A stretch of 64,000 nt of DNA from Gammaproteobacteria bacterium (lineage in GTDB: Bacteria > Pseudomonadota > Gammaproteobacteria > Thiotrichales > Thiotrichaceae), in the NCBI GenBank assembly GCA_018822845.1, contig JAHJJD010000018.1:16607-80606 (forward strand), in the 5' to 3' direction. A program made the translations under genes and the position numbers. The notes under the pieces are model-generated. The model was not told where the DNA came from and searched no databases. It saw only the letters and a program-made list of their open reading frames with translations. Shown here in pieces: positions 35,605 to 62,088 of the stretch; the first letter of the stretch is position 1, and the number at the start of each line of letters is the position of its first letter.

Positions 35605-35717
35605 GATGACTCCTTCTGCATTGCGCAGGAATAACTGCGAATACCGGGATTTATCATTCATGAGAACACATTGCTGTAAGCGGGTTCCGACGATATGTCG
35701 GACTCTTGATACAAGTG

Positions 35718-35847
35718 GAAAAAGAGAACGCCCACGGCAAATATAAGGGGAGGAGGAGTGAGAAACCTTATGTTTGCTGCCGTGGGCGCTTGCAGTGGTT
35801 CTACGCTAGGAGGAGGAGAGAGGAAGAGAACCATTTGTGCTGCAATG
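35718..35847 (-). ncRNA. Putative small RNA: two hairpins, each looping out CUCCUCCUCC, ending in a Rho-independent terminator
   Basis: Hairpin 1 pairs UUGCAG/CUGCAA and UGGUUCU/AGAACCA. Hairpin 2 pairs CGCCCACGGC/GCCGUGGGCG and AUAAGG/CCUUAU and is followed by UCUCUUUUU. There is an upstream promoter and no convincing ORF. Ends are estimated. Confidence 0.7.
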
Positions 35848-35853
35848 CAACAG

Positions 35854-35882
35854 ATATTATGTTTATTCGCACGGCTGGACAA
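35854..35882 (-). promoter_or_regulatory. sigma70-type promoter for the putative sRNA (TTGTCC-N17-TAATAT)
   Basis: -35 at 35882-35877 and -10 at 35859-35854, 17-nt spacer, pointing into the hairpin region. Confidence 0.55.
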
Positions 35883-35903
35883 GCTACTATTTCTCAACCA
35901 AAT

Positions 35904-35920
35904 GGTTAGAAAAACTAACC
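35904..35920. promoter_or_regulatory. LysR-type operator GGTTAG-N5-CTAACC
   Basis: Perfect dyad containing T-N11-A, centred about 65 nt upstream of the predicted sRNA start, the canonical position of an LTTR recognition site; 4 nt behind the LysR stop codon. Confidence 0.65.
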
Positions 35921-35924
35921 CGAA

Positions 35925-36878
35925 TCACAACATCTGAGCTGCCGCTTCTGCTTTCAGCCAATCCACAAAAGCCTCCACTGCGGGCTGGTTCGCCTCTACA
36001 GTCTGCGGGCGCATCACGTAATAAGCCTGTTCCAGCGGCATTGGCAGATCAAACGGAATGCACAGCTTCCCGGCCTCAATATCCAGTTGCGCCAGATGAT
36101 TGAGGCTGAGCAACACGCCCTGCCCGTCCACCGCTGCATCCAGTGCCAACGCTACGTGATTAAAATGTAATCCCCGGTTAGCCTTGACGCCCTCAATACC
36201 CTGCAATTCCAGCCACATTGACCAGTCCGGACGCCCGACATAAGCGGTATCGTCATGCAGCAAGGTATGAAACACCAGATCTTCGGGCTTTTTCAACGGA
36301 TGCGGGTGCGAGTCGCTAACCAGTTCAGGGCTGCATAATGGCACAACCATCACGGGAAACAGCTTTTCCTCCCGGACACTGGATAAACGGCTGGAGCCGA
36401 AGCGGATGATGACATCAATGCCATGCTGAAGAAAAAAGCTTTCCATGCTCTTTTTTTCCAGCGGAAAATCAGCGTCCACCAGGCTTGCGTCACTGCTGAT
36501 CTGCATATCGATGTCAGGGTGGTGCTGGGAAAAGCGGTGCAGGCGCGGCACCAGCCATTTGGAAGCAAAGGAAGGCGCAGTCCAGACCGTGATACTTTCC
36601 GCTGGTCTTGCACCCCGCATCAGGCTGACCGCTTCCGCCAGACTGTCGAACCCTGCCCGTAGCTTGGGCAGGGCAGCTTCCGCCCCCCCAGTCAGGACAA
36701 GTCTCCTGCTCTTGCGCTCAATCAGGGTTAAGCCCAGGAAATCCTCCAGATATTTGATCTGGTGACTGATGGCTGCACGGGTCACATTGAGTTCTTCCGC
36801 CGCCCTGGTAAAGCTCAGGTGGCGAGTAACAGCCTCAAAGGCGCGCAAGGCGTTCAACGGTGGTAATTGTTGTGACAT
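35925..36878 (-). CDS. GcvA-family LysR transcriptional regulator
   Basis: LPPLNALRAFEAVTRHLSFTRAAEELNVT HTH, SFASKWLVPRLHRF, LLHDD...W..W and AAVDGQGV. Confidence 0.9.
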   Translation of the reverse strand: MSQQLPPLNALRAFEAVTRHLSFTRAAEELNVTRAAISHQIKYLEDFLGLTLIERKSRRLVLTGGAEAALPKLRAGFDSLAEAVSLMRGARPAESITVWTAPSFASKWLVPRLHRFSQHHPDIDMQISSDASLVDADFPLEKKSMESFFLQHGIDVIIRFGSSRLSSVREEKLFPVMVVPLCSPELVSDSHPHPLKKPEDLVFHTLLHDDTAYVGRPDWSMWLELQGIEGVKANRGLHFNHVALALDAAVDGQGVLLSLNHLAQLDIEAGKLCIPFDLPMPLEQAYYVMRPQTVEANQPAVEAFVDWLKAEAAAQML

Positions 36879-36940
36879 GATATGATGATGTCTTGGCTGT
36901 ATTTATCGGCCAACAGCTTAGCACCATTCACGACATTGCG

Positions 36941-37360
36941 ATGACTATTTACCAACAGATTTTAAGCATCCCGACACAGGGACGCGGCACTTACAACATT
37001 ACCGCCAAAGTGGATGACAGTATCCACCAGAGTGGTATCAAGACGGGCTTGTGCCATGTATTCATCCATCACACCAGCGCATCGCTGATTATCACCGAAA
37101 ACGCCGACCCGGATGTGCGCCGCGACCTGGAAACCATCCTCAAACGCCTTGCTCCTGACGGCGACCCCAGCTACCGCCACACGGATGAGGGGATCGATGA
37201 TATGTCAGCACATGTGCGCTGTATGCTAACCAATACGGATGTAACTATCCCCGTCACACGCGGGCAAAGCGCATTGGGTACGTGGCAGGGCTTGTATCTC
37301 TACGAACACCGGGCAGGACGCTTCCAGCGCAAGCTGACCATAACCATTTCTGGGGAATGA
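36941..37360 (+). CDS. yjbQ: YjbQ/UPF0047 family protein
   Basis: HTSASL, NADPDVRRDL, HTDEGIDDMSAH and LGTWQGLYLYEHR. Confidence 0.9.
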   Translation: MTIYQQILSIPTQGRGTYNITAKVDDSIHQSGIKTGLCHVFIHHTSASLIITENADPDVRRDLETILKRLAPDGDPSYRHTDEGIDDMSAHVRCMLTNTDVTIPVTRGQSALGTWQGLYLYEHRAGRFQRKLTITISGE

Positions 37361-46882: not shown

Positions 46883-46959
46883 TGGTAGCGGGGGCAGGAT
46901 TTGAACCTGCGACCTTCGGGTTATGAGCCCGACGAGCTGCCAGACTGCTCCACCCCGCA
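46883..46959 (-). tRNA. metY: Initiator tRNA-fMet (CAT)
   Basis: 77-nt cloverleaf TGCGGGGTGGAGCAG...GGGCTCATAACCC...TTCAAATCC...ACCA with three G-C pairs in the anticodon stem and an unpaired 1:72. Confidence 0.97.
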
Positions 46960-62003: not shown

Positions 62004-62088
62004 TGGTACCGACGACCGGACTCGAACCGGTACAGCTTTCGCCACTACCCCCTCAAGATAGCGTGTCTACCAATTCCACCACGTCGGC
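62004..62088 (-). tRNA. tRNA-Leu (GAG)
   Basis: 85-nt class II cloverleaf GCCGACGTGGTGGAATTGGTAGAC...CTTGAGGG...GTTCGAGTCC...ACCA; downstream of secG. Confidence 0.97.

What the first reader, a model, noticed from the sequence alone, without database searches (positions are those of the whole stretch)
35718..36878. Probable LysR-controlled small RNA with twin anti-Shine-Dalgarno loops (GcvB/AbcR-like module)
Seen, on the minus strand directly behind a GcvA-family LysR gene: a perfect LysR dyad, then a sigma70 promoter, then an ~130-nt RNA with two stable hairpins whose loops both display CUCCUCCUCC, ending in a GC-rich stem plus U-tract. Known: E. coli GcvA activates the sRNA GcvB; alphaproteobacterial AbcR sRNAs (CU-rich anti-SD loops, controlled by the LysR protein VtlR/LsrB) and 'cuckoo' RNAs (CCUCCUCCC loops) repress mRNAs by pairing at ribosome-binding sites. 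This sequence does not look like GcvB to me. Inference: an undescribed gammaproteobacterial LTTR-sRNA regulon that silences GGAGGAG-type RBSs, probably of amino-acid or transport genes.
Basis: partly seen in the sequence, partly recalled or inferred. Interest (0 to 1): 0.85.

Follow-up and report, generated by a model that had tools for sequence, protein, structure and literature searches.

The report
GcvA-controlled anti-Shine-Dalgarno small RNA of Thiothrix
Behind a GcvA-type regulator gene, this sulfur bacterium (Thiothrix) encodes a conserved, undescribed small RNA of about 130 nt whose two loops mimic the ribosome's mRNA-docking sequence, and the same regulator-type promoter also drives DUF1127 mini-protein genes in related genera.

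Summary
On the minus strand, 35719-35848, lies a structured RNA of about 130 nt. It has two hairpins with CUCCUCCUCC loops; the second hairpin is also the terminator. A covariance model finds it in 26 of 27 other Thiothrix-genus genomes. Of 30 base pairs, 18 show compensatory changes, and both loops are invariant. No Rfam family matches: ar14 scores 18.7 bits against a cut-off of 58.8, and GcvB gives no hit.

The upstream LysR gene is a true GcvA homologue (222.9 bits to E. coli GcvA, NCBIfam GcvA model passed). The dyad GGTTAG-N5-CTAACC is a variant of the GcvA box ATTAG-n5-CTAAT. It sits at about -65 from the inferred start, with a degenerate second box at -43, as at E. coli gcvB. In seven genomes the RNA lies away from the regulator gene and the dyad stays with the RNA. 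The one genus genome lacking the RNA also lacks the regulator.

The same promoter occurs in 5 of 8 genera of the family. There it drives other CU-rich sRNAs and DUF1127 small-protein genes, a pairing known from alphaproteobacteria.

I class it as a new variant of a known kind.

The parts
35925..36878 (-). GcvA-type LysR regulator gene (317 aa). It is the only GcvA-subfamily member in the genome.
   Evidence: Pfam HTH_1 plus LysR_substrate. NCBIfam GcvA subfamily 306.8 bits, above the 288 cut-off. PDB 8y6u_H, E. coli GcvA, 222.9 bits over residues 1-315. The next paralogues reach only 28-34% identity, over the first ~135-210 residues.
35904..35920 (-). IR1: perfect dyad GGTTAG-N5-CTAACC. This is the proposed high-affinity GcvA box, centred at 35912, about -65 from the inferred start.
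   Evidence: Unique in the genome. Sequence-conserved across 42 sites in 5 genera. It travels with the sRNA when the LysR gene is elsewhere. It has the same format and position as ATTAG-n5-CTAAT at gcvB (PMC5002191).
35883..35897 (-). IR2: degenerate second box (TTGAG-AAATA-GTAGC), centred at 35890, about -43, abutting the -35 element.
   Evidence: Fixed 22-bp offset from IR1 in all 42 sites. A27 and T35 were not specified in the search pattern, yet both are invariant 42/42.
35877..35882 (-). -35 element TTGTCC
   Evidence: (C)TTGT is conserved in all sites.
35854..35859 (-). -10 element TAATAT, with a 17-bp spacer
   Evidence: A TAnnnT hexamer sits at the same place in most of the orthologues inspected by eye (one reads TAATAA). 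The element is below the threshold of the consensus scan.
35719..35848 (-). Small RNA, about 126-130 nt. The 5' end is inferred to lie at 35846-35848.
   Evidence: Fold z = -5.2. Consensus structure with 18 of 30 pairs compensatory. CM hits in 26 of 27 other genus genomes. No conserved ATG. No Rfam family.
35797..35832 (-). Hairpin 1 (stem GGUUCU/AGAACC) with a 24-nt loop carrying CUCCUCCUCCUAGC. The CU motif is at 35809-35818.
   Evidence: Five of the 8 stem pairs show compensatory changes. The loop core is invariant in 23 sequences.
35729..35789 (-). Hairpin 2, which is also the Rho-independent terminator. Lower stem GCGCCCACGGCA/UGCCGUGGGCG, upper stem, and a 17-nt loop UUUCUCACUCCUCCUCC. 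The CU motif is at 35749-35758.
   Evidence: Twelve of 16 pairs show compensatory changes. The loop core CUCCUCC is invariant.
35719..35728 (-). U-rich tail (UUCUCUUUUU)
   Evidence: A T-rich tail follows the stem in all homologues.
35839..35850 (-). Invariant 5' motif TTGCATTGCAGC. UUGCAG may pair with CUGCAA (35790-35795) as helix P1. A DNA-level operator role is not excluded.
   Evidence: CATTGC is invariant. Three of the 4 core P1 pairs never vary, so covariation does not prove the helix. The same motif lies in the promoter spacer of related DUF1127 promoters.

Best explanation
The region 35719-35848 (minus strand) encodes a trans-acting small RNA of a new family, found in Thiothrix and in a sister genus.

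Transcription. The RNA is transcribed from its own weak sigma-70 promoter. That promoter depends on the GcvA-type LysR regulator encoded just upstream. The regulator binds a strong inverted repeat (GGTTAG-N5-CTAACC) centred near -65 and a degenerate one near -43. It then recruits RNA polymerase, as E. coli GcvA does at gcvB.

Structure and action. The RNA folds into two hairpins that display invariant CUCCUCCUCC loops; the second hairpin is also the terminator. These loops copy the anti-Shine-Dalgarno end of 16S rRNA. They most likely pair with extended GGAGGAGG-type ribosome-binding sites of selected mRNAs, blocking translation initiation. An Hfq gene is present, so Hfq may help.

Wider regulon. 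Across the family, the same regulator and promoter also control other CU-rich sRNAs and DUF1127 small proteins.

Shown: conservation, covariation, invariant loops, the identity of the regulator, the motif architecture, and co-occurrence of regulator and motif.
Inferred: transcription start, regulator binding, activation, mRNA pairing, and target identity.
For: RNA reality:
- Fold z = -5.2.
- BLAST homologues in 22 of 27 genus genomes; the CM finds 26 of 27, including four sequences not used to build it, at 68-100 bits.
- 94.8% of cells are paired, 18 of 30 pairs carry compensatory changes, and 0 of 500 shuffles reach this. Slid controls give 34-49% paired.
- Both loop cores are invariant while the stems vary.

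Own promoter:
- In seven genomes the RNA, dyad and promoter lie away from the LysR gene, behind an ABC-transporter operon in the one such locus examined.
- In six of these the LysR orthologue was found elsewhere, about 600 kb away where both lie on one contig. No dyad follows the gene there.

Regulator link:
- The regulator is a GcvA homologue. By my count from the alignment, about 73% of the first 63 residues (the HTH region) are identical.
- The published GcvA boxes ATTAG-n5-CTAAT lie at -65 and -43 of gcvB (PMC5002191). Here the boxes are GTTAG-n5-CTAAC at about -65 and a degenerate box 22 bp downstream.
- The dyad is unique in the genome.
- G013 lacks the RNA, the dyad and the regulator together.
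- In genus g4 the promoter motif occurs in exactly the 8 genomes that have the regulator (one of them a truncated 188-residue match next to its dyads) and in none of the 16 without it.
- The motif is at background level outside the family: 3 of 398 genomes, against 15 hits of the reversed control.

Mechanism:
- CUCCUCC is the complement of the SD core.
- The cuckoo/CcsR/NfeR1 RNAs have the same design and are described as anti-SD RNAs (PMC4615179, PMC8034643).
- Hfq is present, 79% identical to E. coli Hfq.
- Only 14 of 3899 predicted translation-initiation regions carry GGAGGAGG.
- The CBS-domain gene with a 13-nt match keeps an AGGAGGA(G/A)-type extended SD in most orthologues.
Against: - There is no transcript evidence at all. 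The 5' end is therefore only inferred from the promoter.
- The promoter is weak and the consensus scan does not call it.
- The LysR stop lies 4 nt from the dyad, and the dyad itself scores as a weak terminator-like hairpin. Read-through from LysR followed by processing could contribute to the RNA.
- Target prediction by duplex energy is unspecific, because any G-rich leader scores well. The retained strong SD of the CBS gene could simply reflect high expression. It is also fairly strong in G013, which lacks the RNA.
- Helix P1 is not supported by covariation.
- The regulator-motif co-occurrence is phylogenetically clustered, so the counts are not independent events.
Confidence: 0.72

Rival explanations
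1. The RNA is real, but it acts mainly by binding or titrating a protein rather than by pairing with ribosome-binding sites. Possible partners are a DUF1127/CcaF1-type RNA-binding protein, ribosomal protein S1 or another pyrimidine-binding protein.
For: The same promoter type drives DUF1127 genes in related genera. Rhodobacter CcaF1, a DUF1127 protein, binds RNA and affects maturation of the CcsR RNAs (PMC8034643). Repeated identical motifs in loops are typical of protein-sponge RNAs.
Against: No DUF1127 ORF was detectable in this genome, yet the RNA is fully conserved. The motif is the exact complement of the SD core. RNAs of the same design in alphaproteobacteria are described as anti-SD regulators.
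Confidence: 0.12
2. The RNA is a small RNA as described, but the conserved dyad is bound by a regulator other than the adjacent GcvA homologue. Alternatively the GcvA homologue represses rather than activates.
For: Binding is untested. A second conserved motif (TGCAnTGCA) near the start site hints at another factor. In seven genomes the RNA is not next to the regulator gene.
Against: The box has the format and positions of known GcvA boxes. The HTH is about 73% identical to E. coli GcvA. Phyletic co-occurrence and co-loss link the two. A site at -65 and -43 upstream of a weak promoter is the classical activation geometry.
Confidence: 0.1
3. The RNA has no promoter of its own. It is the processed 3' UTR of the LysR mRNA, and the dyad is the LysR terminator.
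For: The dyad starts 4 nt after the LysR stop and is flagged as terminator-like. There is no other terminator between LysR and the RNA.
Against: In seven genomes the RNA, the dyad and the -35/-10 region lie away from LysR, and no dyad follows the relocated LysR genes that were found. The dyad is conserved in sequence rather than by covariation. The spacing to -35 is fixed in 42 sites.
Confidence: 0.04
4. The element is a cis-acting leader or attenuator of the downstream START-domain gene, or a non-functional CCT microsatellite.
For: It lies upstream of the next gene on the same strand (start at about 35604). The (CCU)n copy number varies between species.
Against: A strong terminator follows the RNA. 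The downstream gene is not conserved: a START-domain gene occurs only here, and a convergent NUDIX gene, whose 3' coding end is conserved across most relatives, lies there instead. Covariation and invariant loops exclude neutral repeats.
Confidence: 0.02

Closest known systems
Cuckoo RNAs (CcsR1-4 / RSs0680, alpha-r14 / NfeR1; Rfam RF02344 ar14, RF02791 CcsR1)
   Same: Both have a modular design of adjacent hairpins with loops that display a CCUCCUCC-type anti-Shine-Dalgarno motif, ending in a terminator. In this copy, loop 2 contains CCUCCUCCC exactly. Both are linked to DUF1127 small-protein genes: in alphaproteobacteria by co-transcription (CIN1), here by sharing one promoter type and by tandem arrays in genus g4.
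   Different: No sequence or CM homology: ar14 scores 18.7 bits against a cut-off of 58.8, and CcsR1 gives no hit. Cuckoo RNAs were found only in alphaproteobacteria among 2680 genomes. The present RNA is single-copy, has its own LTTR-type promoter rather than an RpoH-type one, and its second module doubles as the terminator. This genome has no DUF1127 gene.
GcvA-GcvB module of Enterobacteriaceae, Pasteurellaceae and Vibrionaceae (Rfam RF00022)
   Same: In both, a GcvA-type LTTR gene lies next to an sRNA gene. Inverted-repeat boxes of the form xTTAG-n5-CTAAx lie at about -65 and -43 of the sRNA promoter (one search compared). The sRNA ends in a Rho-independent terminator, and Hfq is present.
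   Different: The RNA is unrelated to GcvB. There is no hit in the window, and the best genome hit is 15.4 bits against a cut-off of 42. Its seed is CU-rich and presented in loops, not a G/U-rich linear R1 region. The gene is in tandem downstream of the regulator, or unlinked, rather than divergent. gcvTHP here is preceded by a glycine riboswitch.
VtlR/LsrB regulon of Brucella and Rhizobiales (AbcR2 sRNA plus DUF1127 proteins)
   Same: In both, a LysR-type regulator encoded near an sRNA gene activates that sRNA together with several DUF1127 small-protein genes (PMC12595884). This is the same regulon composition as inferred here for the family.
   Different: Orthology of the regulators was not tested. 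This regulator is clearly GcvA-type. AbcR RNAs are a different family, and no Rfam hit was found here. The reported binding motif (CAATGCAGCCATGCA) differs from the GGTTAG dyad, although a TGCAnTGCA motif of unknown role does occur in these promoters.

Membership tests
Cuckoo RNA family (ar14 / CcsR) | Two to four adjacent hairpins, each with a CCUCCUCCC loop motif | tested here: met
   There are two hairpins. The loops carry CUCCUCCUCCUAGC and CUCCUCCUCCCC in this copy; the genus-invariant core is CUCCUCC. The motif is a variant: CCUCCUCCC is present only in loop 2 of this copy.
Cuckoo RNA family (ar14 / CcsR) | Score at or above the Rfam gathering threshold for RF02344 or RF02791 | tested here: not met
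   ar14 scores 18.7 bits (E = 0.31) against a cut-off of 58.8. CcsR1 gives no hit at E <= 10.
Cuckoo RNA family (ar14 / CcsR) | Adjacency to or co-transcription with a DUF1127 ORF (CIN1 subgroup), with an alphaproteobacterial host | tested here: not met
   The host is gammaproteobacterial (Thiothrix). No DUF1127 ORF was found in this genome. The link to DUF1127 exists only at the family level, through the shared promoter.
GcvB sRNA (RF00022) | Match to the GcvB covariance model | tested here: not met
   No hit in the window. The best hit in the whole genome is 15.4 bits against a cut-off of 42.
GcvB sRNA (RF00022) | Promoter with GcvA boxes at about -65 and -43, next to gcvA | tested here: met
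   IR1 is centred at 35912 and IR2 at 35890, relative to an inferred start at about 35847. The published boxes are in PMC5002191. Orientation is tandem, not divergent. The start site is inferred, not measured.
GcvA subfamily of LysR regulators (the upstream gene) | NCBIfam NF008352 above its cut-off, and full-length similarity to E. coli GcvA | tested here: met
   306.8 bits against 288. PDB 8y6u_H, GcvA: 222.9 bits, residues 1-315 aligned to 1-295.
GcvA subfamily of LysR regulators (the upstream gene) | Control of the glycine-cleavage operon gcvTHP | tested here: inconclusive
   gcvTHP (contig C33) is preceded by a glycine riboswitch, RF00504 at 67.2 bits. No GGTTAG-type box occurs elsewhere in the genome. 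Absence of regulation is not shown.
Trans-acting, Hfq-type base-pairing sRNA | Discrete primary transcript, Hfq association, and pairing with target mRNAs | not testable with these tools
An Hfq gene is present. Targets are only predicted.
VtlR/LsrB regulon | Regulator orthologous to VtlR/LsrB | not tested
The similarity is in regulon composition only.

The most novel reading that the evidence does not exclude
In Thiotrichaceae the GcvA orthologue no longer serves gcvB/gcvTHP. Instead it heads a dedicated post-transcriptional regulon of anti-Shine-Dalgarno sRNAs and DUF1127 small proteins. A LysR-type regulator plus DUF1127 plus anti-SD sRNA triad is also seen in alphaproteobacteria, as VtlR-AbcR2-DUF1127 and CcaF1-CcsR. 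The triad would then be an old, conserved regulatory unit of Proteobacteria, and GcvB would be one lineage-specific replacement of the RNA partner.
Probability: 0.4. Interest if true: 0.78.

Novelty: new variant of a known kind. Interest (0 to 1): 0.64.

Why it matters
- It adds an undescribed sRNA family with strong comparative support, in a group (filamentous sulfur oxidisers important in wastewater bulking) for which I found no sRNA literature.
- It extends cuckoo-like anti-SD RNAs beyond the alphaproteobacteria, the only group in which the 2015 census found them.
- It links three separately studied systems through one promoter motif: GcvA/GcvB, DUF1127 small proteins, and anti-SD sRNAs. 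No paper in the searchable library mentions GcvA and DUF1127 together.
- This yields a directly testable prediction. A GcvA-type protein should bind GGTTAG-N5-CTAACC and switch on both RNA and DUF1127 effectors.
- It also offers a natural system for asking what DUF1127 proteins and anti-SD RNAs do together.

Tried and rejected
- Rfam at gathering and at E <= 10: no family explains the RNA. The related loci of other genera have no hit either.
- Coding potential: the spurious 79-aa ORF 35658-35897 runs through the RNA. The homologues have no conserved ATG (five have none) and they differ by indels that are not multiples of three. Rejected.
- Multi-copy repeat: BLAST and the CM find one copy per genome. 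The only other hits are a weak 3'-UTR hairpin on contig C9 and a second weak hit in G004.
- Exact-pattern scan of 185,579 species genomes: all true hits were Thiothrix or unnamed MAGs of that genus. The 11 hits in other phyla failed the CM.
- The conserved block downstream of the RNA in relatives looked like a second RNA. It is the 3' coding end of a convergent NUDIX gene.
- Genome-wide search for further GcvA-type boxes: TTAG-N5-CTAA occurs 10 times, which I estimate is no more than chance would give. None is upstream of gcvT.
- Target prediction with RNAduplex on 3899 crude gene starts is dominated by G-rich REP-like leaders and is not discriminating. One candidate was checked across the genus with a suggestive but not decisive result.
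- Earlier-findings look-ups by place and by sequence returned nothing for this genome.
Full report
**What is in the sequence**

The minus strand of 35718-36878 carries a 317-aa LysR-type ORF at 35925-36878. Four nucleotides after its stop lies the perfect dyad GGTTAGTTTTTCTAACC, at 35904-35920.

The following elements come next:
- a conserved block GTTGAGAAATAGTAGC;
- a -35-like TTGTCC (35877-82);
- a 17-bp spacer;
- a -10-like TAATAT (35854-59);
- a region that folds far better than shuffles, at -40.4 kcal/mol with z = -5.2.

The decamer CTCCTCCTCC occurs twice in the 64-kb window. Both copies are here and both lie in predicted loops; chance expectation is 0.07.

The second loop sits on the long GC-rich stem that is followed by UUCUCUUUUU. 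Hairpin 2 is therefore also the terminator.

The consensus promoter scan lists nothing, because the hexamers match only 8 of 12 positions. That fits an activator-dependent promoter.

**Is it a real RNA gene?**

The window belongs to a 4.0-Mb draft genome of the genus Thiothrix. The public record titles of the homologous loci show this, and the closest relative is Ca. T. moscowensis.

BLAST finds the stretch in 22 of 27 other genomes of the genus, at 71-89% identity.

A MAFFT alignment of 23 sequences (A1) gives an RNAalifold consensus of 30 pairs.
- On that alignment 94.8% of cells are standard pairs.
- Eighteen pairs show changes on both sides.
- None of 500 column shuffles reaches any of the five measures.
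- Sliding the 3' partners by 1-3 columns drops pairing to 34-49%.

The stems of hairpin 1 and of both tiers of hairpin 2 covary. The loop cores, CTCCTCCTCCT and CTCCTCC, are invariant.

A covariance model built from A1 (R1) finds the RNA in 26 of 27 other genus genomes. Four of these sequences were not used to build it (68-100 bits).

The RNA is single-copy. No ATG is conserved, and indels break any reading frame.

I consider the RNA gene established by comparative evidence.

**Is it a known RNA?**

No Rfam family reaches its threshold anywhere near it.

With permissive settings the best relevant hit is alphaproteobacterial ar14, a cuckoo RNA. It scores 18.7 bits against a gathering score of 58.8.

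GcvB gives no hit in the window. Its best score in the whole genome is 15.4 bits against 42.

An exact-pattern scan of one genome per 185,579 species returned 26 loci. The 15 that the model confirms are all Thiothrix or unnamed MAGs of that genus.

The cuckoo census screened 2680 genomes and found such RNAs only in 78 alphaproteobacteria (PMC4615179). I found no paper on Thiothrix sRNAs.

**The regulator and the dyad**

The ORF passes NCBIfam's GcvA subfamily model, at 306.8 bits against a cut-off of 288.

Its closest solved structure is E. coli GcvA (8y6u), at 222.9 bits over the full length. The next hit, AmpR, scores 55 bits. By my count from the alignment, the first 63 residues, which hold the DNA-binding helix-turn-helix, are about 73% identical.

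It is the only such protein in the genome.

Phylogenetic footprinting of gcvA-gcvB regions has defined two GcvA boxes, 5'-ATTAG-n5-CTAAT-3'. They are centred at -65 and -43 from the gcvB start, and the first is the better conserved (PMC5002191).

Here the perfect box GTTAG-n5-CTAAC is centred at 35912. With a start 6-8 nt after the -10 element (about 35847), that centre falls at -65.

A degenerate box, TTGAG-AAATA-GTAGC, is centred 22 bp downstream, at -43. It abuts the -35 element.

**Does the dyad belong to the RNA or to the LysR gene?**

The LysR orthologue lies directly upstream of the RNA in 20 of 27 loci.

In the other seven genomes the RNA sits elsewhere with the dyad and promoter intact, behind a polar amino-acid ABC-transporter operon in the one such locus I examined. 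In six of these seven the regulator gene is found elsewhere, roughly 600 kb away where both lie on one contig, and no dyad follows it.

The dyad is therefore a promoter element of the RNA. It is not the LysR terminator.

The dyad is unique in this genome.

G013 is a complete single-contig genome and the one genus member without the RNA. It also lacks the regulator and the motif.

**The module is family-wide and includes DUF1127 genes**

I searched the 107 genomes of the family for GGTTA-N6-CT-N-ACC-N20-24-CTTGT.
- The search gave 42 distinct sites in 33 genomes of 5 of 8 genera.
- The reversed control pattern gave 8 hits.
- All sites have the same spacing, although the pattern allowed five.
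- Two unspecified positions of the second box are invariant in 42 of 42 sites.

Outside the family the motif is at background level. It occurs in 3 of 398 genomes of the class, while the reversed control gives 15 hits.

In genus g4 the motif occurs in exactly the eight genomes that have the regulator (in one, G077, a truncated match lying beside its dyads). None of the sixteen genomes without the regulator has it.

These promoters drive two kinds of product.
- **Other CU-rich sRNAs.** They have a different body but carry CUUCCUCCUCCUUUU or CCAUCUCCUCCUUGG next to a terminator (g4, g2). In g5 some are two-hairpin versions like the Thiothrix RNA.
- **Short ORFs that Pfam assigns to DUF1127.** They score 39.8, 34.4, 23.2 and 17.8 bits against a cut-off of 23.3.

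In g4 these units form tandem arrays beside the regulator gene.

Two Thiothrix species have a second such promoter in front of a DUF1127 gene. The present genome has none detectable.

**Comparison with known systems**

- In Rhodobacter the cuckoo RNAs CcsR1-4 are made from the 3' UTR of ccaF1, a DUF1127 gene whose product binds RNA (PMC8034643).
- In Brucella the LysR regulator VtlR activates the sRNA AbcR2 and three DUF1127 proteins (PMC12595884).
- The Thiotrichaceae regulon has the same composition, but a GcvA-type regulator and a GcvB-type promoter.
- In this genome gcvTHP is preceded by a glycine riboswitch (RF00504, 67.2 bits).
- No paper in the library mentions DUF1127 and GcvA together.
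- An earlier unchecked note of this scan reports a GcvA-like LysR gene next to a DUF1127 gene with a cuckoo-like RNA tail in the alphaproteobacterium Reyranella. I did not test it.

**Mechanism**

The invariant loops are the complement of an extended Shine-Dalgarno sequence. Hairpin presentation of such loops is the design of RNAs described as anti-SD regulators. Hfq is encoded. The most likely action is therefore occlusion of ribosome-binding sites.

Only 14 of 3899 crudely called gene starts carry GGAGGAGG in the right place.

Leaders with 12-13 nt of contiguous complementarity to loop 1 belong to:
- a CBS-domain protein;
- an acyl-CoA synthetase;
- a small membrane protein.

Leaders with shorter matches include a thiolase and a TRAP-transporter small permease.

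Orthologues of the CBS gene keep an AGGAGGA(G/A)-type extended site in most species. This does not separate sRNA targeting from a need for strong translation. Targets therefore remain open.

**Verdict**

It is a new sRNA family of a known functional design, under a known type of regulator. Its link to DUF1127 genes is, as far as I could find, unreported.

Transcription, binding and pairing all remain to be shown experimentally.

Noticed in passing
window 35839-35850 (-); loci L125, L127, L129, L132, L134, L136, L137: The motif TGCA-n-TGCA(A/G)C is invariant at the inferred 5' end of the Thiothrix RNA. In related DUF1127 and sRNA promoters of genus g5, and at the second Thiothrix sites, it lies inside the -35/-10 spacer. 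It resembles the reported Brucella VtlR motif CAATGCAGCCATGCA. It may be a second operator.
   Followed up: partly
alignment A1; window 35803-35826 and 35749-35765: The number of CCU repeats in both loops varies between species, from 3 to about 9 (G006 loop 1). This is always by slippage of the triplet, while the flanks stay fixed.
   Followed up: no
own genome C9:44751-44859 (-), locus L060 (outside the window): There is a second CU-loop hairpin (loop CUCCUCCUCUCCUCUCUCUAGCUA), then AAUCCUCCAUU and a terminator. It lies directly after the stop of a gene encoding an alanine/lysine/glutamate-rich repetitive protein. It is a possible 3'-UTR-derived relative (R1 19.7 bits).
   Followed up: partly
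own genome C33:38747-43900 (-), locus L172: gcvT-gcvH-gcvP is preceded by a glycine riboswitch (RF00504, 67.2 bits). No GcvB is present in the genome. The GcvA homologue seems uncoupled from its classical targets.
   Followed up: yes
own genome, many intergenic regions (for example upstream of C33:29560, C25:65375, C121:22457 on the strands given); none in the window: There is an abundant REP-like G-rich palindromic repeat (CCCCCTCTCCCCTTGAGGGAGAGGGGGCTGGGGGGTGAGGGGTA and variants) in gene leaders. It dominates duplex-energy target predictions for the CU-rich RNA.
   Followed up: no
locus L065 (G002), taken as an example of the seven genomes where the RNA is not behind LysR: In this locus the RNA lies directly behind a polar amino-acid ABC-transporter operon (permease plus ATPase). 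It is convergent with a NUDIX hydrolase gene.
   Followed up: partly
window 36879-36941: The regulator gene is divergent from a UPF0047 (YjbQ-like) gene, with only about 62 bp between the start codons. This neighbour is conserved in only 5 of 20 loci.
   Followed up: no
window 35658-35897 (-): A 79-aa TTG ORF runs through the RNA. It is an artefact of the stop-poor CU-rich sequence, and gene callers may annotate it as a hypothetical protein.
   Followed up: yes
G004:C1:61233-61383 (-): There is a second, weak match to the RNA model (30.5 bits) in one Thiothrix genome. It may be a diverged paralogue.
   Followed up: no
window 46886-46959 (-) and 62007-62088 (-): Two tRNA genes, the only Rfam matches at gathering score in the window.
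   Followed up: no
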